Positions 4,988-32,843 of a DNA stretch of 64,000 bases are shown here, in pieces; the stretch's first letter is position 1, and the number at the start of each line of letters is the position of its first letter. The translations under genes were made by a program, and so were the position numbers. The stretch comes from a virus. Its lineage: Duplodnaviria; Heunggongvirae; Uroviricota; Caudoviricetes. Where the stretch lies: IMG/VR virus record IMGVR_UViG_2609459800_000001; one strand, written 5' to 3'. The notes under the pieces are model-generated. The model was not told the DNA's origin. It did no database searches and saw nothing but the letters and a program-made list of their open reading frames with translations.

Positions 4988-7248
4988 AAGAGCTGTGCTA
5001 TGGATCTGTTTGCAGTGGAATTGAAGCCGCGAGTATTGCCTGGGAACCGTTGGGTATGCGTCCGGCGTGGTTTGCTGAAATCGAGCCTTTTCCATCTGCC
5101 GTTCTTGCGCACCGCTGGCCCCATGTCGCCAACCTTGGCGACATGACAAAACTTGCCAAAAAAGTCCTGGCTGGGGAAATCGAATCCCCTGATGTGCTCG
5201 TCGGGGGTACGCCTTGTCAGGCATTCAGTATCGCGGGCTTACGTGGTGGGCTTGATGATGAACGCGGCGCGCTAACTTTGAAGTATGTGGAGCTTGCAAA
5301 TGCAATTGACGACAAACGGTCTGAGTCCTTCCTCAAACCGACAGTTATCGTCTGGGAAAATGTCCCAGGAGTCCTGTCATCGGCAGATAACGCCTTCGGA
5401 TGTTTCCTTGCCGGATTGGCTGGAGAAGATGCGCCATTTGAACCAGGTGATCGACCTGAATCAGGAAAAAGTAACGCGTTCTGGCGGTGGGATGGCAAAA
5501 CCGGTTGCCATGCTCCAAAGTGGCCGCAGTGTGGTTGTATTTATGGACCGCAGCGAAAGGTGGCCTGGAGAATCCTTGATGCCCAATACTTCGGAGTGGC
5601 ACAACGACGCCGACGCGTGTTTGTTGTCGCAAGTGCTCGAACAGACCTCGATCCCGCAACGGTACTTTTTGAGTTCGAAGGCGTGCGTCGGAATATTGCG
5701 CCGAGCCGAAAAAAGAAGGAAATCGCTTCCGCCATTATTGCAAATGGCGCTGCAATCAGTGGCGAAAGCCTAAATCCATGCCTACACGCTGACATGCCAC
5801 CCGGTATGAAATCGACGAAAGCCGTAAACGCTTTCAGGATGGCAGCATTTGGGGAATATATTGACGATGAAACCGCATCGACAGTAAAGGCAAGAGATTT
5901 TAAAGATGCCACTGACCTTGCCGTTTTTAGCAGCACAGGAGCAGGTTTTTGGTCAGAAGGGCATGGTACATTGCGGGCACGTGAGCAAGAAAGCCATGAG
6001 CATCTTGTTACATTGGCTTTTCCTGAGCGTATGAGCGGTACACAACATGCTGCAACTAAGAATACTTCACCATCTCTAATGGCTAAAAATCCAACAGCTG
6101 TTTGCTATGAAGTAAGAAACGCAGAAGTAGCTGTCCGCCGTCTTACCCCTGTTGAATGTGAAAGGCTGCAAGGTTTTCCTGATGGGCATACGTTGATCCC
6201 GACGGAAAAGCGTAAAAAAGTTAATTCAGATGAACTGGCATATCTTCGCAATCACTATCCAGATTTAAGCGAAGAAGAGGCCGCGATGCTTGCAGCTGAC
6301 GGACCGCGTTACAAAGCGATCGGCAATAGTATGGCAATACCAGTAATGCGCTGGATTGGCGATCGGATTACTAAGGCCGTATGTCGGCAGAAAGAAGGAA
6401 GTGAAACAAAAGAGCGAAAAGTTAAACCAGCGGCAGAATTCGAACGGTCCATATTCAAATGGGCTGGTGGAAAATTTGGTGTTCTGGAACAAATCTTTCG
6501 CTATTTGCCAGAAGGGAAGCGCCTGATCGAACCTTTTGTCGGTGGCGGAGCTGTCTTCACGAATGCCGGATACCAGGAAAATCTACTAAATGATGTGAAT
6601 GCTGACCTGATTAACTTTTACAAGACTCTGCAACGCGAGGCGCATTCACTTATCACACTGGCGCATCGTTTCTTCCAGGACTACAACACACAGGAAGGAT
6701 ACCTGGCAGTACGGAATGCGTTTAACAAACAAGTCTATGATGATTTACATCGCGCAGCGGCGTTTTTGTTCCTGAACCGACATTGTTTTAACGGATTGAC
6801 GCGTTACAACCAGGCCGGTGAGTTCAATGTCGGTTACGGGAAGTATAAAACTCCGTATTTCCCATTACAGGAGATGGAAGCCTTCCTCGGTGCGGAAGGG
6901 CGGTCTGAGTTTGTATGCGGTGATTTTGCAGCGGTGATTGAAGCTGCCGGAGAAGGAGATGTCATCTTTTGCGATCCGCCGTATGAACCGCTTCCAAATA
7001 CAGAGGGATTCACGAACTATTCCGGTCATGACTTTAAGTTTGAAGAGCAAAAACGCCTGGTGTCTCTGTTGACGGATGCTCATCGTCGAGGTGCAAAGGT
7101 TCTCATTACTAACAGTGGCGCGCCAAACATCAGAGAGCTTTATCATGACAGTGGCTTCAGAGTGGAACCTCTTTTTGCCAGACGTTCTGTGTCTTGTAAG
7201 GGGGACACTCGAGGTGTAGCTCATGACGTTTTGGGTGTATTGCTCTAA
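4984..7248 (+). CDS. dmt: bifunctional DNA methyltransferase (N-terminal C5-cytosine MTase-like, C-terminal Dam-like N6-adenine MTase)
   Basis: ORF track 754 aa; GTPCQAFS and ENV motifs N-terminally, DPPY motif C-terminally; size and position match P1 Dmt. Confidence 0.8.
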
Positions 7249-7255
7249 TAAATTT
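7239..7255 (+). promoter_or_regulatory. C1 repressor operator (perfect consensus), likely operator of the tRNA-tci-ban operon
   Basis: ATTGCTCTAATAAATTT overlapping dmt stop; next rightward genes are tRNAs, tciA, ban. Confidence 0.6.
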
Positions 7256-7920
7256 ATTAGTGTAATATCGCCTCAATGAATCGTGATTTATAGAGCGATT
7301 TAGCTGTTAGCCGCGACAGGCGCGGCGGTAAGCATGGCTGGGCCTAGTCCTCCCAGACAAACCACCGAGTTGCCAGGTTGACCATGCGCCTAAGTGGCAA
7401 CGCCGAAGTGCGTTACGAGCTTCCAGTTTGCCCATCTTCGGGTGGGCGTTTTTTTCAGGGTTTTCGTCATGGTTAGCGACTTTGCGGCGGTTTAGAAACT
7501 GACCATTAAAGTAAATGCAAACGATGATCTGATGATGGTAGCGGCCTAAGAAGCCAGATGCCACGGGGTATGAGTCGTCCCCCGTCAAAAAATCGACCGC
7601 AGAGTGTCCCCGTCTGTGTATTAGGGAACGGGGAGGCACAACAGGTAAGGGCGCTGGTGTGATTAACCAGATGAACGAGAAGGGGCCATCTGTTGGTCAG
7701 CGTCCTTTCCTGTTGCGTTTTCTTTTCAGCGTAACAGCGGTGCTTAACAGCACTTTGGGTACAGTTCCACGAATTTACGGGTATATCCCGTCATGCTGAA
7801 GGCGCTAATCACGCTGGAAGCCAGGGTTGTGCATCCCCTGTTACCGAATTGCAGCCAGGGCGCGGTGCGCCGAAAAGCATACGGAGGTGGAAGCCCTCGC
7901 CGGAGACGTACCCGGCAAGT

Positions 7921-7996
7921 GATGGTGTAGCTCAGCGGTTAGAGCGGTTGACTGTTAATCAACGGGTCGATGGTTCAAATCCATCCACCATCGCCA
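7921..7996 (+). tRNA. tRNA-Asn (anticodon GTT)
   Basis: Cloverleaf by hand: acceptor GATGGTG/CACCATC, anticodon loop CTGTTAA, T-loop GGTTCAAATCC, encoded CCA. Confidence 0.8.
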
Positions 7997-7998
7997 AT

Positions 7999-8074
7999 GC
8001 CGGTTTAGCTCAGTTGGTAGAGCGCCTGCCTTGTAAGCAGGATGTCAGCGGTTCGAGTCCGTTAATCGGCACCA
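7999..8074 (+). tRNA. tRNA-Thr (anticodon TGT)
   Basis: Cloverleaf by hand: acceptor GCCGGTT/AATCGGC, anticodon loop CTTGTAA, T-loop GGTTCGAGTCC, encoded CCA. Confidence 0.8.
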
Positions 8075-8660
8075 GCACAACAGGTAAGGGTATTTTGCGA
8101 CGTCGGAGATCGCCGAGCTTGGCAGAGGGTTCGAATCCCTACGAAGTACCCTTACCGTTGTGATGAAGTGCAGCTCTTTGAAGCAACCAGAAGATAAGCA
8201 TCTGGCTTCACAACATAAACCGCAGGAACGACCAATAAACGGTAGTCCGTATGGAGAACACCCCGTTGAGGAAGAGGCCTGGCCGGAACCGTAACCGGCA
8301 CTACAACGTTGAGAACACTGGCGTAACGGGGTCATATCCCAATCTACGAATAAATGTTGCGTTGCAGCGTGACAACCAGTGTTCTCAACATTGTGGTGAA
8401 TGCACAGGCTGATGTGCCGCAACTACAGTAGTGCGCGCTTTGCGGGGCTTGCTACAACCCTGTGTCGGAGTTCAGCACCGACCATCACAGTTTGATTCTC
8501 TGGCATGAGCATAACGCTGAAATAAGTCCAGTCTGGTGCGGCCCGATCACCCGCCGTTAGCTCCACGAAACGGAGCACGTAACAGGTAAGAGCATTCTCC
8601 TGTAACGGGTTCATATCCCAATCTACAGGTCCACCAGGAATGCTCTTTCCGTTGCGGTGA
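8075..8660 (+). repeat. noncoding region with diverged direct repeats, a 19-bp long-range inverted repeat and a tRNA-like remnant
   Basis: GTAACGGG(G/T)TCATATCCCAATCTAC at ~8323 and ~8601; AACAGGTAAG(G/A)G at ~8078 and ~8583; CAACGTTGAGAACACTGG (8304) pairs with CCAGTGTTCTCAACATTG (8377); acceptor-like GGTAAGG/CCTTACC around 8085-8160. Confidence 0.5.
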
Positions 8661-8805
8661 ATGCGGCTAAGCGCACGCGGGGAAATGGTTATATCTGTCC
8701 ATTATTTCTCCTTATTTCCCCGTCCACGGTGGATAACCAGCTAAAGGACACCGGGAAGCACCCGGCACCGCAACCTTATTTCCCAACCAGTAATGAGGTT
8801 AATAA

Positions 8806-9231
8806 ATGCTCGGCATTCTCAAAAAGAAATTCCGCAAAGCGGCTGGCGGAGTCAAGAAGATGGAAAACCGTGATGCGGTGGAAGCGACTGTCTGGGGCGC
8901 ATATTCCATTGCATACTCTGACGGCACCTGCGATGCGAAAGAAATTGCAGTATTGGAAAAAACCATTGCAGCACTTCCTGCCTTTGCGCCGTTCTCCGGT
9001 GAAATTGCCCAGATGAGCGCCAATATTCGCGCTCAATATGAAGCCTCGCCGCGCCGAGCGAATGCCCAGGCTTTACGTGAACTGGCTGACGTGTCTGGAA
9101 CTAATGATGCGGTAGATGTTCTGTGCCTATGCATTGATATTGCTGACCAGGATGGCATTGGGGCAGAAGAGCAGGAGCAATTGAAGAAAATTGCCCAGGC
9201 TCTTCAATTGCCACTGGAACAGTATATCTGA
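8806..9231 (+). CDS. TerB-like protein (P1 tciA position)
   Basis: ORF track 141 aa; acidic TerB-like sequence; located between tRNA cluster and ban. Confidence 0.5.
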   Translation: MLGILKKKFRKAAGGVKKMENRDAVEATVWGAYSIAYSDGTCDAKEIAVLEKTIAALPAFAPFSGEIAQMSANIRAQYEASPRRANAQALRELADVSGTNDAVDVLCLCIDIADQDGIGAEEQEQLKKIAQALQLPLEQYI

Positions 9232-9395
9232 TGGTTATAAAAGCACGTCTAATTCTGGCTTTGGTTTTTCTCGTGCTATCTGTGCTGGTGGATTTCACCA
9301 GCACAATCCTGTCGGTTTTATCCGACGGGGCGTTGGTAGCAGTAGCTGTAACATTGGTATGGCCGATATTAAAAACAGCTTCTAAGGATCAGTGA
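9231..9395 (+). CDS. small hydrophobic membrane protein (54 aa)
   Basis: ATG overlaps tciA stop; MVIKARLILALVFLVLSVLVDFTSTILSVLSDGALVAVAVTLVWPILKTASKDQ; below ORF-track cutoff. Confidence 0.35.
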   Translation: MVIKARLILALVFLVLSVLVDFTSTILSVLSDGALVAVAVTLVWPILKTASKDQ

Positions 9396-9502
9396 TGGGC
9401 TTCTGGGATTTTGCTGACAAGCATCCAATTGTTCTCGTTGTCATTGCTGGCATAGTTGTGGGCGGTATTGCTGGCGTCATAGAAGCACTCAGGAAACAGT
9501 AA
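9395..9502 (+). CDS. small hydrophobic membrane protein (35 aa)
   Basis: ATG overlaps previous stop; MGFWDFADKHPIVLVVIAGIVVGGIAGVIEALRKQ. Confidence 0.3.
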   Translation: MGFWDFADKHPIVLVVIAGIVVGGIAGVIEALRKQ

Positions 9503-9505
9503 TCC

Positions 9506-9581
9506 GGCCCTTTAGCTCAGTGGTTAGAGCTGGCGACTCATAATCGCACGGTCACCGGTTCAAGTCCGGTAGGGGCCACCA
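9506..9581 (+). tRNA. tRNA with CAT anticodon (Met or lysidine-modified Ile)
   Basis: Cloverleaf by hand: acceptor GGCCCTT/AGGGGCC, anticodon loop CTCATAA, T-loop GGTTCAAGTCC, encoded CCA. Confidence 0.75.
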
Positions 9582-9867
9582 TATTTGGTTGTAACACGGC
9601 GTCTGGCACATGCGTCGTTAGCGGTCTGGTGACGTTAAAAGGGGGGAACCTTGCCCCTAGCTCAGGCAACGAACCAGGTAGCCGGAATGTGCAAGCCACC
9701 GTTTGTTGTTTCTCGGGTAAAGGGATTCACCATCCTGGCGATTCGGTGTGACAGCCGGGAAGAGTCCGGCGCATTAATCCTGATTTTCTGGTGATGACTC
9801 ATATCGTTAGGAGTGATTTGAGTATGCCGATTATATCTGACATTCAGCACGCCTGGGTGGAGTGCTA

Positions 9868-29437: not shown

Positions 29438-30099
29438 CTACTCTAACGACAGCATACTTACAGCAATTGGTATTTTTTGCAGGGGAGGCTACTTGTCATC
29501 CTGACGCAAACTATTTATTGGAATTTGAGAGGTTAGCGTCACCCGGTATCGTTCTGGAACTGGCCCAACAGGTGCTGACATTGAGACAAAAAGAGCAACT
29601 TGGAAGTGATGCTTACAAGTTAGATTTTGAGCAATGGCTTGAACAGCAACGCGGGAAAATAGATGTGGACTGTGGTTGTGTGTCCACTGAAACATTCATG
29701 CACTGGCTGCGGGTAGCTTACGAGGCTGGCAACTATCCGGATATTCCGGATAGTTCGGTGCCAGCGCCAGGAAAGGGAGTCACCGGTGAACGTATCCGCA
29801 TTAAGCCGCATGTTTATCGCGAACTGGTTAACCGCCTCCACGATACAGCGATCAAGTGTGCTGGCACCCAGCAATTACGAGAAAGAATTAGCCGTGTTTT
29901 GGGCGACGTTATTACGCCAGATCATCATAAACAAGCCGAGAAAAGTGACCTGGAAAGGTGTCACCTTGAGGCGGCATTAAACATTAAGCCGGGGCATACG
30001 CTTGGCATTATCGATGCTCTGTTGGTTCATAAGATGGCCAGGGCTTTATTGCCGCTGGTGGCTGATAAGCATGAGGCGGGCCATGCCAACGAAAGCTGA
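29419..30099 (+). CDS. hypothetical protein
   Basis: ORF track 226 aa. Confidence 0.4.
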   Translation: MAQKEMTTLTTAYLQQLVFFAGEATCHPDANYLLEFERLASPGIVLELAQQVLTLRQKEQLGSDAYKLDFEQWLEQQRGKIDVDCGCVSTETFMHWLRVAYEAGNYPDIPDSSVPAPGKGVTGERIRIKPHVYRELVNRLHDTAIKCAGTQQLRERISRVLGDVITPDHHKQAEKSDLERCHLEAALNIKPGHTLGIIDALLVHKMARALLPLVADKHEAGHANES

Positions 30100-30364
30100 G
30101 TTACAGGCGCGCATAGAGATTCTTGAAAAAGAGAATGCGAGTCTAAAAGGAATGCTGGCGCGGGCGGAAAGGGAATTATCAGGCAAATTATTGCCAGAAG
30201 AACTGCCACCAGCAGATATACCAGATCGAGTGTCCCGGTGGATGAAGTCTTTTGGTTTGCCGTGGGAGGCTTTTTGGTGCTACGAGCATCGCAGATGGTG
30301 TGATGAACTTGATAGCAGTTTTCCCTACTTTGCGGAAGGGAATACTTGCCCTGAGTTGTATTAG
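30083..30364 (+). CDS. coiled-coil hypothetical protein
   Basis: ORF track 30002..30364; start moved to internal ATG (MPTKAELQARIEILEKENASLKG); N-terminus uncertain. Confidence 0.3.
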   Translation: MPTKAELQARIEILEKENASLKGMLARAERELSGKLLPEELPPADIPDRVSRWMKSFGLPWEAFWCYEHRRWCDELDSSFPYFAEGNTCPELY

Positions 30365-30969
30365 CTCAGATTTAACCTGACACAGCTACGGCACAGTTCT
30401 AAACCTAATCTGACAGGCCGCTTTGTGCCAAAAGCGGGCATTGGGCGTTGTGGTAAATGCCTGATAATTTCTTCTTTTACTAGCACAAGCCGCTGGATAA
30501 TTGCCATGTTTCCAGCTTAAGTAAATCAAGAACAACTCGCGTACTGGCTGTATAAAGTTTGCCGGACGCAAATTTATTGATTTCAGAAAAACCTGTTGAA
30601 ATAGAGGTATATCAGCGTTAGTTTGATGTGAGTAAAGATCAGGAAAGAAGGTAGAAAAATGTTCCACTTGCGGGCAAAAAATCCTTCTATTAAATTGTTA
30701 AGGCTTTATGAAGATCGTACATTACGAATCGAATTCACCATGGGTAGGGAACATGAAATGTCCAAACCCTAAGTGCAGGAGGAATGACTCCTGCTTGATT
30801 CGGGATAGGTTGTACTCGCATGAAGTATGTATTGGCTCTAAACCCAAATACTGGTGGCGTTTGGTCACAAATACCTTAACAAGTTTAGGTATGGGACGCT
30901 CCTAACGTCGCGCCCCTGCTAAAAGCGTTAGCTGTTCTCTAGCCTTCAACCAGATAAGGAAATAATCGT

Positions 30970-32400
30970 ATGAGTTCAGAATTGATTGCAAAACCTGGAA
31001 CAGGGGTACTTTCCACAGATACAACAAAATTTGAAGGATATTTATCCTATCTTGGTTTGCCGACCGAAAATATAATTGCCTCTCTCCCTGAGCGCCAAAT
31101 TATTGAAAAAAACCTCCCCACATTCATAGATTCTTTACCTGTTGAGGTAAAAAGAGATGCTCGATATTTATCAAAGTTCGTTGCTGGTGCGGCTATAGGA
31201 CTATTTGATGCATCGTTAAATTATGTTTGGAATGAAGTTGTACTGAATTTAAGGGAAAAAGTAGTAGTTTATGGCCTCGATATGTTCTTTGATGCTGCAG
31301 TTGGAGGAGGACGTAGAGAGCTTTATTCTACCGAAGAAGATCTTTCTGGTTTAAAAGACAACACCCTTATTAATACTTGCCGAAAACTTGAATTAATATC
31401 TGACGTTGTTTACACCAAGCTCAATCATATATTGACTATGAGGAATGACATTGGTGCTTCGCACCCAAATTCATACTCCATAAATGCTTTTGAACTTCTT
31501 GGCTGGCTCCAAACATGCGTTCAAGATATTTTGAACGACAAACCGTCCGCGTCTGCCATACAAATAAAATCATTCCTTGAGAATCTAAAAAGATCCACTG
31601 ATGTTCTTGATGAAGCCACAATTCATAGCATGGAAAGACCTTTGAATGATCTGTCGCTTCAGAATACAGACAATCTACTCAATAGTATTTTCGGCATATA
31701 TACAGCTGACTCAACAGGAAATGTTGTCAGAAAAAATATCGCTCTTTTTGCTCCGCATATCTGGAATAAAAGCAGTGATAACGTAAAATACAAGCTCGGT
31801 GTGACGCTAGACGGATACAAGAACAATCTTCACAACGAGAAACATGCTTTAGGTATTGAGTTTTTTACGTTTTGTGATGGTAATCGTTATCAATCATTAG
31901 ACTCTAGAATTATATCACTGGACGGCCATGCCGACGATCTCTTAGAGGCTAGGTATGCTTGGGATAACTTTTATAATGAACCCCCTCATATGCGGAAGAT
32001 TCTTTCGTATTTAAAGACTGAAAATGACATACCTTTAGAGAGGGTTCATAAGCTTATAAAAACAGTTTTGATTTGCCGTGTTGGTAAAGGAATACCATAT
32101 AATACTGGTGTTTCTCCGGCGGGACGACCTTTGTATGATCAGTTTTTTGGCATGCTTGGCGATCAAAACATTATCAATACAGTTATAGCAATGCACTCTA
32201 ATGAAGTGCGAGTGAATTTAGACAACAAATACTGCCAGCAACATATGGTAAGCGTTTTGACTTTGTTAAGAGCCAATGCTCGTAGCGAAAGAATTCAAGA
32301 AATTATAGATTTTTTGATCGCCAACCAAACGATTCTCCATAAAGTACACAACGATAAGAGATATAGAGATCTAACTAAAAATCACATCAGTTTTGGCTAA
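30970..32400 (+). CDS. AT-rich accessory protein with Rx6H (HEPN-like) motif; candidate abortive-infection/defence protein
   Basis: ORF track 476 aa; visibly AT-rich, N/K/I-rich codon usage in a ~50% GC backbone; TMRNDIGASHP fits Rx4-6H; AT-rich promoter-like upstream region. Confidence 0.45.
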   Translation: MSSELIAKPGTGVLSTDTTKFEGYLSYLGLPTENIIASLPERQIIEKNLPTFIDSLPVEVKRDARYLSKFVAGAAIGLFDASLNYVWNEVVLNLREKVVVYGLDMFFDAAVGGGRRELYSTEEDLSGLKDNTLINTCRKLELISDVVYTKLNHILTMRNDIGASHPNSYSINAFELLGWLQTCVQDILNDKPSASAIQIKSFLENLKRSTDVLDEATIHSMERPLNDLSLQNTDNLLNSIFGIYTADSTGNVVRKNIALFAPHIWNKSSDNVKYKLGVTLDGYKNNLHNEKHALGIEFFTFCDGNRYQSLDSRIISLDGHADDLLEARYAWDNFYNEPPHMRKILSYLKTENDIPLERVHKLIKTVLICRVGKGIPYNTGVSPAGRPLYDQFFGMLGDQNIINTVIAMHSNEVRVNLDNKYCQQHMVSVLTLLRANARSERIQEIIDFLIANQTILHKVHNDKRYRDLTKNHISFG

Positions 32401-32582
32401 CAAAGCGCTGCACACGGACTAAATTAAGCTTCGCTCACTGGGGCGGGCGACAGCCCGTCCCTTAACCAAACGTTAATGTCCGCTTCTCGCTCAAAGCAGA
32501 CTGTCAGATTTGATTGTGTGCTGCCAGTGAAAACTGTCAGATCAAGTCTGAGCTAATACACCTGAGTGTAGGAGGTAGCGCG

Positions 32583-32843
32583 ATGTTTCGTCCTCGTCCA
32601 ATACCGCCGAAACTAACTAATGGCTATCAGCCGAATACTCCAGAAATACAAGGGAGCGAGGGGCTTAAACCACCACCAGCACCACGTATTCCGCCTGTAG
32701 CAAGGAACGTATCATTACGACGAGAGTTAATATTAGCCTTGTCGCCCATTCTGGCTGCCCGCCAGGATTGGGTAAGTAATGATGAACTGGCAGAAAAAAT
32801 CACATCGCTGGTGGATAAAATTATGGATAAAGCTGATATCTGA
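32583..32843 (+). CDS. hypothetical Pro-rich protein
   Basis: ORF track 32514..32843; start at ATG 32583 after AGGAGG. Confidence 0.35.
   Translation: MFRPRPIPPKLTNGYQPNTPEIQGSEGLKPPPAPRIPPVARNVSLRRELILALSPILAARQDWVSNDELAEKITSLVDKIMDKADI

What the first reader, a model, noticed from the sequence alone, without database searches (positions are those of the whole stretch)
30366..32582. AT-rich moron encoding a 476-aa HEPN-motif protein: candidate single-gene defence/abortive-infection system
The gene is conspicuously AT-rich with Asn/Lys/Ile-rich codon usage, unlike its neighbours, and is preceded by ~600 bp of AT-rich noncoding DNA with its own promoter-like features. TMRNDIGASHP fits the Rx4-6H signature of HEPN RNases found in Abi and toxin proteins. 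A horizontally acquired, self-contained gene between the early genes and hot-humD-phd-doc is a good candidate for an uncharacterised anti-phage or exclusion function.
Basis: partly seen in the sequence, partly recalled or inferred. Interest (0 to 1): 0.75.

Follow-up and report, generated by a model that had tools for sequence, protein, structure and literature searches.

The report
Hitchhiking HEPN defence-like gene cassette
A P1-like phage-plasmid has picked up a 2.2-kb transposase-less jumping cassette whose single gene encodes an uncharacterised but widespread protein with a predicted HEPN RNase domain, most likely a one-protein anti-phage "suicide" nuclease of the kind recently shown for DARNA/PD-T7-3.

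Summary
ORF 30970-32400 (476 aa) is intact and AT-rich: GC 0.375 against 0.475 in the flanks. Related P1-like genomes lack it.

Its vehicle is new information. The gene is the only passenger of a 2204-bp element (30357-32560). The element has perfect 14-bp termini, imperfect ~90-bp inverted ends and a 7-bp target duplication (CCTGAGT). An exact empty site exists in plasmid pF1273-3. The termini are those of an IS481-family insertion sequence that itself makes 7-bp duplications, so this is a mobile insertion cassette moved in trans. A decayed integron attC lies just after the gene. A Pseudomonas homologue is the first cassette of a chromosomal integron.

Sibling cassettes with the same ends fill the P2 Z-region. 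One carries PD-T7-3/DARNA, a validated HEPN tRNase with the same two-domain layout. Others carry ThsB-like TIR and PDC-S31 genes.

Best reading: a new family of single-protein HEPN abortive-infection nucleases. No function has been tested.

The parts
30350..30356 (.). Left copy of the 7-bp target-site duplication CCTGAGT.
   Evidence: The empty site in pF1273-3 (L023) reads TGCCCTGAGTGTAGGAGG. The two window alignments overlap by these 7 bases.
30357..30444 (+). Left ('type A') end of the cassette. It comprises the terminal inverted repeat 30357-30382 (TGTATTAGCTCAGATTTAACCTGACA), a second ATCTGACAG repeat at 30408-30416, and an inner hairpin at 30416-30439.
   Evidence: Inverted repeats I1 and I2. 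The same terminus bounds autonomous IS481-family elements. Hairpin energy is -9.1 kcal/mol, z -2.6. The end is conserved across genera.
30445..30969 (+). Leader of 525 bp with no intact gene. It holds a decayed zinc-ribbon ORF (30708-30905, 65 aa) and belongs to the 99%-identical cargo seen elsewhere.
   Evidence: No promoter match lies upstream of the ORF on the + strand.
30970..32400 (+). The single passenger gene, a 476-aa protein of a widespread uncharacterised family.
   Evidence: 1197 homologues; 735 clusters at 50% identity.
31081..31569 (+). N-terminal HEPN-like domain (residues 38-200). The R158-N159-x5-H165 motif is encoded at 31441-31464.
31570..32397 (+). C-terminal all-helical solenoid domain (residues 201-476), the putative sensor or oligomerisation domain.
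   Evidence: Model pLDDT is 76-96 across this region. Structural neighbours are HEAT/ARM/MA3/PUF repeats, including STAG1. N333, E337 and Y389 are conserved.
32406..32482 (+). Relic integron attC site directly after the stop codon.
   Evidence: A covariance model built from 14 attC sites of the Pseudomonas integron that carries a homologue gives this as its only hit in the 64-kb window: 33.2 bits, E 7e-7. The outer R boxes are decayed.
32475..32560 (-). Right ('type B') end of the cassette. It comprises a weak inner hairpin at 32478-32501, CTGTCAGAT repeats at 32501 and 32534, and the terminal inverted repeat 32535-32560 (...TCTGAGCTAATACA).
   Evidence: The hairpin is only -2.9 kcal/mol, z -0.3.
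32561..32567 (.). Right copy of the 7-bp target-site duplication CCTGAGT.

Best explanation
The region is a mobile insertion cassette: a non-autonomous derivative of an IS481-family (ISVvu4-like) insertion sequence. It spans 30357-32560 and keeps the transposase-binding ends but no transposase gene. It transposed into a P1-like phage-plasmid and duplicated 7 bp of target.

Its one passenger gene began as a promoterless integron cassette, and an attC relic is still attached. It encodes a two-domain protein: an N-terminal HEPN-type RNase domain (catalytic R158/N159...H165) and a C-terminal helical solenoid.

By analogy with DARNA/PD-T7-3, HepS and ApeA, I propose the following. The protein stays inactive in the lysogen. 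The C-terminal domain senses a cue from an infecting phage. The HEPN dimer sites then cleave host RNA, most likely tRNA anticodon loops. This stops translation and aborts the infection, which protects the clonal population and the P1-like element.

Shown here: the cassette anatomy, the empty site, the IS481 ends, the attC relic, the conserved motif, and the genomic company. Predicted: the HEPN fold. Inferred: RNase activity, the trigger, and abortive infection.
For: Vehicle:
- Backbone homology to pF1273-3 stops at 30356 and resumes at 32561, with a 7-bp overlap.
- The termini equal those of autonomous 1.2-kb elements encoding a 346-aa IS481-family transposase (NF033577, 281 bits against a cutoff of 224).
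- Those elements make 7-bp duplications in Xenorhabdus, Catenovulum and a MAG and in E. coli MEW.
- The full-length IS occurs in 77 of 5426 E. coli genomes. Cassette ends occur in 1157 of 5426.
- Complete sibling cassettes also have 7-bp duplications.

Origin:
- The Pseudomonas homologue lies next to an IntI-like integrase in an array of 14 attC sites.
- The attC model hits 32406-32482 with E 7e-7.

Protein:
- The family is conserved and close to constant in length, with 1197 homologues.
- R158/N159/H165 are at least 90% conserved at 21-25% identity.

Defence association:
- A sibling cassette in the P2-EC30 Z-region is PD-T7-3 (PADLOC E 3.5e-168). This is DARNA, which has an N-terminal HEPN domain with Rx4H, a Pds5-like C-terminal sensor, tRNA anticodon nuclease activity and an abortive-infection phenotype (bioRxiv 10.64898/2026.02.22.705581).
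- Other siblings carry ThsB-like TIR (E 1e-122), PDC-S31 and ThiF+JAB genes.
- Identical cargo sits next to CBASS and DUF4145+helicase, and in lambdoid, P2-like and Yersinia prophage moron positions.
- hhalign against the DARNA family is colinear over 354 columns and aligns the two catalytic motifs, at E 0.011.
Against: - There is no experimental datum for this family.
- There is no hit to any PADLOC, Pfam or NCBIfam model or to PDB sequences.
- Foldseek of the full model against PDB gave nothing below E 0.1 and did not recover the deposited PD-T7-3 structure.
- The hhalign probability is only 3.7%.
- The motif spacing is Rx6H, whereas DARNA has Rx4H.
- No promoter was found, so expression in the lysogen is unproven.
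- Guilt by association is imperfect, because some sibling cassettes carry GNAT or membrane proteins.
Confidence: 0.6

Rival explanations
1. The protein is a stabilising toxin (addiction or post-segregational killing) that benefits the plasmid or cassette rather than an anti-phage sensor-effector. On this view it is a HEPN toxin whose antitoxin is the decayed upstream ORF, an RNA, or a host factor.
For: - HEPN toxins of toxin-antitoxin pairs are the closest structural neighbours (5yep, 8xdj, 7ae2).
- Integrons and plasmids are rich in toxin-antitoxin modules (bioRxiv 10.1101/2024.07.02.601686).
- There is a relic of a small zinc-ribbon ORF upstream.
- phd-doc lies 2 kb away, which shows this region hosts addiction functions.
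Against: - No MNT or other partner is conserved. Neighbours differ in every context examined.
- In the integron and in Aeromonas the cassette is the ORF alone, with a leader of about 16-35 bp.
- The upstream ORF is fragmented or deleted in all 99%-identical copies.
- At 476 aa with a large second domain, it is unlike the ~130-aa HepT toxins.
Confidence: 0.12
2. The HEPN-like domain is non-catalytic, acting as a ligand- or protein-binding helical bundle as in MtlR or the kanamycin-nucleotidyltransferase partner. The protein would then have another role, such as regulation, anti-defence or lysogenic conversion.
For: - MtlR and HI0074-type non-nuclease HEPN folds score as well as the nucleases.
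- The model is of low confidence at the motif loop.
- There is no sequence-level match to any nuclease family.
Against: - The R-N-...-H triad and the 'SAAHPN' context are nearly invariant across about 735 clusters, and the profile alignment places them on DARNA's catalytic HRHLSAHP.
- Non-catalytic HEPNs typically lose these residues. This last point rests on established knowledge of the HEPN superfamily (Anantharaman et al. 2013), cited from memory.
Confidence: 0.12
3. The inverted repeats mark a site-specific recombination hotspot, as proposed for the P2 Z-region in 2004, and not a transposon. On this view the gene arrived by recombinase-mediated cassette exchange.
For: - The 99%-identical cargo (30418/30420 to 32490-32509) occurs inside diverged shells and outside any shell.
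- Breakpoints fall inside the two inner hairpins, and the outer half-stems vary with context.
- The P2 records annotate the repeats. The title of Nilsson et al. 2004 invokes site-specific recombination; that paper could not be read.
- An attC relic abuts the right hairpin.
Against: - For the insertion into this P1-like backbone, the evidence is transpositional: an exact empty site, a 7-bp duplication, and termini identical to an IS481-family IS.
- No recombinase is encoded in the element.
- The two ideas are not exclusive. Transposition moves the shell, and a second, unidentified process swaps the cargo.
Confidence: 0.3

Closest known systems
DARNA / PD-T7-3 (PDB 'Dandelion' 9wxf), a single-protein HEPN abortive-infection tRNase
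   Same: - Similar size (456 vs 476 aa).
- An N-terminal HEPN domain with an R...SAHP motif followed by a ~300-aa helical solenoid.
- A single gene, AT-rich.
- Carried between the same IS481-type cassette ends (P2-EC30 Z-region).
- The profile alignment is colinear and superposes the catalytic motifs.
   Different: - No PD-T7-3 HMM hit.
- BLASTP finds no similarity.
- hhalign E is 0.011 with probability 3.7%.
- The motif is Rx6H rather than Rx4H.
- An extra ~40 N-terminal residues.
- Foldseek did not link the model to 9wxf.
- The trigger (ssDNA bound by phage SSB in DARNA) is unknown here.
HepS (Gifsy-1 prophage) and ApeA, prophage- or island-borne single-protein HEPN anticodon nucleases
   Same: - A single HEPN protein encoded by a mobile element.
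- The sensor-plus-HEPN logic described in the papers read or listed.
   Different: Sizes and sensor domains differ, and no sequence similarity was detected.
Mobile insertion cassettes (MICs), such as MIC231 of Bacillus cereus and the qnrS2 cassette of Aeromonas
   Same: IS-type inverted ends, a target duplication, no transposase and one passenger gene (definition in PMC5444012).
   Different: - The ends derive from an IS481-family element.
- The ends are long (~90 bp) and of two conserved types, each finishing in a hairpin.
- The family carries many different cargos, several of them anti-phage, and occupies the P2 Z-region.
Integron gene cassettes encoding phage defence (BRiCs; Celtic-deity systems of the Vibrio cholerae integron)
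   Same: - A single compact ORF with an attC.
- A homologue is the first cassette of a Pseudomonas chromosomal integron.
- Integron cassettes are enriched in small defence systems, including the HEPN-only 'Esos'.
   Different: In the window the attC is decayed and no integrase is nearby. The cassette now travels inside a transposon shell. Identity with any tested cassette could not be checked.
P2 Z/fun-region inserts flanked by inverted repeats (GenBank AJ512676, AJ512681, AJ512683)
   Same: Homologous left and right repeats, with a 33-40-bp match at 97.5-100% identity to window 32475-32514.
   Different: Here the element sits in a P1-like backbone, has intact perfect termini and a clean duplication, and can therefore be recognised as an IS481-derived transposon.

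Membership tests
HEPN superfamily | Four-helix up-down bundle fold. | tested here: met
HEPN superfamily | Conserved Rx4-6H motif at the start of the last core helix. | tested here: met
   R158-N-D-I-G-A-S-H165 (Rx6H). It is invariant in 27 sequences and at least 90% conserved in 38 sequences down to 21% identity.
HEPN superfamily | Dimer with a composite active site, and RNase activity. | not testable with these tools
   No multimer modelling or biochemistry was available.
PD-T7-3 / DARNA family | Match to the family profile. | tested here: not met
   PADLOC returned 0 families at E<=1, whereas P2-EC30 ORF1 scores E 3.5e-168. BLASTP gives no similarity.
PD-T7-3 / DARNA family | Remote homology and a shared two-domain architecture. 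| tested here: inconclusive
   hhalign is colinear over 354 columns and aligns the motifs, at E 0.011 and probability 3.7%. Foldseek against PDB is not significant.
Mobile insertion cassette derived from an IS481-family IS | Terminal inverted repeats matching an autonomous IS. | tested here: met
   TGTATTAGCTCAGAyyTGAyCTGACA bounds elements that encode an NF033577 transposase.
Mobile insertion cassette derived from an IS481-family IS | Target-site duplication and a demonstrable empty site. | tested here: met
   CCTGAGT is duplicated, and pF1273-3 has the uninterrupted site. The autonomous IS and sibling cassettes make 6-7-bp duplications.
Mobile insertion cassette derived from an IS481-family IS | No transposase gene, with passenger gene(s) instead. 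| tested here: met
   The only long ORF is the 476-aa gene, which has no rve or HTH domain.
Mobile insertion cassette derived from an IS481-family IS | Mobilisation in trans by the cognate transposase. | not testable with these tools
   The full-length IS is present in 77 of 5426 E. coli genomes, but no assay was possible.
Integron gene cassette | attC recombination site 3' of a single ORF. | tested here: met
   The covariance model from 14 attC sites hits 32406-32482 at 33.2 bits, E 7e-7, and this is its only hit in the window. However, the R''/R' pairs are non-canonical, so the site is probably inactive.
Integron gene cassette | Residence in an array next to intI. | tested here: not met
   This is not so in the window. 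It is met only by the Pseudomonas sp. TMP25 homologue.
HEPN-MNT / HepT-type toxin-antitoxin pair | Adjacent cognate antitoxin (MNT nucleotidyltransferase). | tested here: not met
   No conserved neighbour appears in more than 15 contexts.
Core P1 gene set | Orthologue at this position in P1-like genomes. | tested here: not met
   It is absent from all 24 matching phage records. P1 has upfM/N/O here, RCS47 has a different gene, and pF1273-3 has nothing.

The most novel reading that the evidence does not exclude
A family of transposase-less IS481-derived shells, present in about a fifth of E. coli genomes and forming the P2 Z-region, may act as a dedicated shuttle for single-gene immune systems. 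Cargo would be swapped between shells, integrons and defence islands by a hairpin-directed recombination that is still unknown. On this reading the 476-aa protein is a new DARNA-like HEPN sensor-nuclease with its own trigger.
Probability: 0.3. Interest if true: 0.8.

Novelty: new variant of a known kind. Interest (0 to 1): 0.62.

Why it matters
First, it names a large, conserved and entirely unannotated protein family as a strong candidate single-protein HEPN immune nuclease. The family has 1197 clusters at 90% identity and about 735 at 50%, across Gamma- and Betaproteobacteria and Bdellovibrio. It is ready for direct testing by cloning, R158A/H165A mutants and tRNA-end sequencing.

Second, it gives a concrete mechanism for a 20-year-old puzzle. 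The inverted repeats around the variable inserts of the P2 Z/fun region are the ends of an IS481-family-derived cassette that transposes with 7-bp duplications. This same vehicle carries validated or recognised defence genes (DARNA/PD-T7-3, a ThsB-like TIR, PDC-S31) into P1-like, P2-like and lambdoid phages.

Searching for these ends could therefore serve as a cheap anchor for discovering more compact defence genes. The locus also documents one gene passing through three nested mobility layers: integron cassette, transposon shell and phage-plasmid.

Tried and rejected
**Searches with no result**
- Pfam, NCBIfam and PADLOC scans of the protein and of 27 family members gave nothing meaningful. 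PHROGs gave only an unknown-function family.
- PDB sequence searches with the protein and with the profile gave no hit.
- Foldseek of the full model against PDB gave nothing below E 0.1.
- The promoter/terminator scan found no enrichment.
- A search for an 'empty' miniature element with the two ends joined found none in E. coli. The smallest copy is ~676 bp and carries a DUF4160 gene.
- Nilsson et al. 2004 is not held. Citing papers gave no detail on the repeats. The terminal sequence appears in no searchable paper in a relevant context. Protein accessions appear in no paper.

**Ideas considered for the repeats and dropped**
- ERIC element: only a short resemblance in the P2 copy.
- Xer/dif-type modules and Tn7/Tn552/IS21-type ends: superseded once the IS481-family transposase was found next to the same terminus.
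- The two inner hairpins as attC sites: the attC model hits only the region before the right hairpin.

**Left open**
- Whether the conserved RTT triplet inside each hairpin marks an integrase-type crossover. The data do not decide it.
- Whether the decayed upstream zinc-ribbon ORF was once a partner gene. It is fragmented in every copy seen.
Full report
**1. Observation**

The window carries a P1-like backbone: DUF551, pmgT/U/V-like genes, hot, humD, phd-doc and DUF968. ORF 30970-32400 (+) encodes 476 aa and includes TMRNDIGASHP.

- GC is 0.375 for the ORF (GC3 0.32) and 0.396 for the element. It is 0.475 in the 10-kb flanks, and neighbouring genes have GC3 0.44-0.57.
- The protein is Asn/Ile-rich (8.0% and 7.8%) but not notably Lys-rich (5.7%).
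- The ~600 bp upstream has no intact gene.
- The consensus promoter scan found 6 sites against 6.0 expected by shuffling, and none lies upstream of the ORF on the + strand. The 'own promoter' remark is therefore unsupported.

**2. The gene sits in a transposon-like cassette**

No phage record contains the gene. A ~2.08-kb module (window ~30420 to ~32496-32502) is 99% identical in more than 100 plasmids and in E. coli chromosomes.

Inverted repeats flank the region: 30402-30442 with 32475-32515, and 30351-30382 with 32535-32566.

P1-like plasmid pF1273-3 aligns up to 30356 and again from 32561. Its sequence reads ...TGCCCTGAGTGTAGGAGG.... The window therefore has a 2204-bp insertion, 30357-32560. 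The insertion starts TGTATTAGCTCAGA, ends TCTGAGCTAATACA, and is flanked by a 7-bp duplication, CCTGAGT. The same junction is 100% identical in a 100.8-kb contig (L081) and 99.8% identical in L076.

**3. The ends are IS481-family ends**

- The terminal motif occurs in 44 loci of taxonomically diverse genomes.
- In Catenovulum, Xenorhabdus, Pectobacterium and a MAG it bounds a 1.2-kb element encoding a 346-aa protein.
- NCBIfam calls that protein an IS481-family transposase: 281 bits against a cutoff of 224. Pfam finds HTH_29 plus rve.
- These insertion sequences make 7-bp duplications: CAGTAAG and GCTACAA, with one 6-of-7 match.
- E. coli strain MEW has a copy with the same terminus and the duplication GATAATT.
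- The full-length IS is in 77 of 5426 E. coli genomes. Relatives in Vibrio are annotated ISVvu4 family.

The window element lacks any transposase. It is therefore a mobile insertion cassette in the sense used for other IS derivatives (PMC5444012), presumably moved in trans.

**4. A family of such cassettes with swapped cargo**

- Cassette ends occur in 1157 of 5426 E. coli genomes.
- The ends come in two conserved ~90-bp types. Each contains the 26-bp terminus, a second ATCTGACAG repeat and an inner hairpin.
- The same ends are annotated as inverted repeats around the variable inserts of the P2 Z-region in P2-EC30, P2-EC48 and P2-EC58, and they occur in P22H4.
- Complete siblings with 7-bp duplications carry varied cargo:
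  - a ThsB-like TIR protein (PADLOC E 1e-122);
  - a DUF2971/PDC-S31 protein (E 2e-51);
  - a weak GIY-YIG match;
  - a 5.4-kb ThiF+JAB cluster;
  - others with GNAT, SEC-C or membrane proteins.
- P2-EC30 ORF1 is PD-T7-3 (E 3.5e-168).

The 476-aa cargo, at 99.6-99.9% identity, also sits in other places:
- a diverged shell in lambdoid prophages;
- beside CBASS;
- beside a DUF4145 plus 1209-aa helicase pair;
- on IncFIB plasmids;
- in AlpA-type islands.

In these copies the breakpoints fall inside the inner hairpins, and the outer half-stems differ by context. This points to a second process that exchanges cargo. I could not identify it. The left hairpin is stable (-9.1 kcal/mol, z -2.6). The right one is weak in this copy.

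**5. Integron ancestry**

- The Pseudomonas sp. TMP25 homologue lies next to an IntI-like integrase. It is followed by an array of cassettes separated by 14 near-identical attC sites.
- A covariance model of those sites gives one hit in the whole window, 32406-32482, directly after the stop codon: 33.2 bits, E 7e-7. Its outer R boxes are decayed.
- The model also hits the E. coli and Aeromonas copies.

The gene is therefore a former integron cassette. This fits recent reports that integron cassettes are rich in compact anti-phage genes, including a HEPN-only one.

**6. The protein**

- There are 1197 homologues in the 90%-clustered collection, nearly all 475-478 aa, from Enterobacterales, Aeromonas, Vibrio, Shewanella, Pseudomonas, Methylovulum, Burkholderiales and Bdellovibrio. 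All are named hypothetical.
- A profile search finds 735 clusters at 50% identity.
- No neighbour is conserved.
- R158, N159, H165 and P166 are at least 90% conserved down to 21-25% identity. So are G77, L78, D80, N84 and W87. N333, E337 and Y389 are invariant.
- The AlphaFold model is all-helical, with pLDDT 78.7.
- Residues 38-200 modelled alone (pLDDT 67) again give HEPN proteins first. Also listed are AbiA, HepS, Csm6, AbiF, Csx1 and Cas13b.
- The C-terminal 276 residues are a confident HEAT/ARM-like solenoid.

**7. Comparison with DARNA**

PD-T7-3 has been characterised as DARNA:
- 456 aa;
- an N-terminal HEPN domain with R117x4H122;
- a Pds5-like C-terminal domain that binds ssDNA presented by phage SSB;
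- a dodecamer;
- a tRNA anticodon nuclease acting by abortive infection.

It is deposited in the PDB as 'Dandelion'.

The family studied here shares the two-domain plan and the vehicle. A profile-profile alignment is colinear over 354 columns and places MRNxxSAAHPN on HRHLSAHP. However, its E-value is 0.011 and its probability only 3.7%. The PD-T7-3 HMM does not hit, and Foldseek does not connect the model to the PDB entry.

I therefore file the protein as 'works like', not as a member.

**8. Verdict**

- Securely established (about 0.9): the cassette anatomy and its IS481-family origin.
- Well supported (about 0.85): the integron ancestry.
- Best available reading, but untested (about 0.6): a HEPN RNase acting in abortive infection.
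- Speculative: DARNA-type sensing through the C-terminal domain.

Noticed in passing
window 30002-30364 and 32583-32843: The cassette landed three codons before the stop of the upstream 120-aa gene. The C-terminus changes from ...CPECRR* in the empty site to ...CPELY*. The insertion lies just ahead of the Shine-Dalgarno/ATG (AGGAGGTAGCGCGATG) of the next 86-aa gene, so it splits what looks like a translationally coupled pair.
   Followed up: partly
window 30418-30439 and 32478-32501; loci L001, L002, L009-L012, L075-L084: The 99%-identical cargo is bounded by hairpins. The inner half-stems travel with the cargo, while the outer half-stems differ in every context yet stay roughly complementary. 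An RTT triplet follows each hairpin on the cargo side in most family members. No recombinase or mechanism was identified.
   Followed up: partly
L010 (E. coli 1409 chromosome) about 5940-6010 and 8044-8080: Next to a type II CBASS operon, a right-type site (GTCCGCTTTTCGCTCATTGCTGCCTGTC) precedes the cargo, and a similar site follows it. The arrangement resembles two tandem cassettes that share the same outer half-site.
   Followed up: no
L007/L008 (E. coli, P2-like prophage near pheST-ihfA): A 478-aa paralogue with 53% identity (P0119) sits between ogr and gene D of a P2-like prophage. This is a different hotspot from the Z-region, and the ends of this cassette family are not recognisable there.
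   Followed up: partly
L073/L074 (Yersinia kristensenii prophage): An 84%-identical homologue occupies the classic lambdoid moron slot between antiterminator Q and the holin/lysis genes.
   Followed up: no
L013 (Pseudomonas sp. TMP25) 6480-17431: This is a chromosomal integron with an IntI-like integrase and at least 14 attC sites. Several cassettes begin with the same ~40-bp leader (GAAGCGGCTACAAATTTAGCG...), which suggests duplicated or related cassettes. An rve-type transposase interrupts the array.
   Followed up: no
window 30708-30905; L072 4414-4855: A remnant of a small CxxC...CxxC zinc-ribbon ORF lies upstream of the gene. It is longer but still fragmented into three pieces in the Erwiniaceae copy, and it is absent from the integron and Aeromonas copies. 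It may be a lost partner or an unrelated earlier passenger.
   Followed up: partly
L017-L020 (metagenome contigs) and L080: A truncated or intact IS110-family (DEDD) transposase lies 100-370 bp downstream of the gene in several unrelated contexts. This may reflect targeting of the attC or hairpin sequence by IS1111/IS110-type elements.
   Followed up: no
L021/L022 (P2-like Z-regions): The outermost P2 repeats (TTGTATGAGCTC... and ...GAGTGAGTACA) look like decayed versions of the cassette termini. The flanking heptamers are similar but not identical (CAATAAG and AATCAGG). This suggests the P2 Z-region began as an ancient insertion of this cassette family.
   Followed up: partly
L009/L084, L079, L080, L083: A 117-aa DUF4145 (HEPN-type) protein and a 1207-1217-aa AAA_11/AAA_12 helicase recur immediately upstream of the cargo in plasmids and islands. 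This may be a separate two-gene defence system.
   Followed up: no
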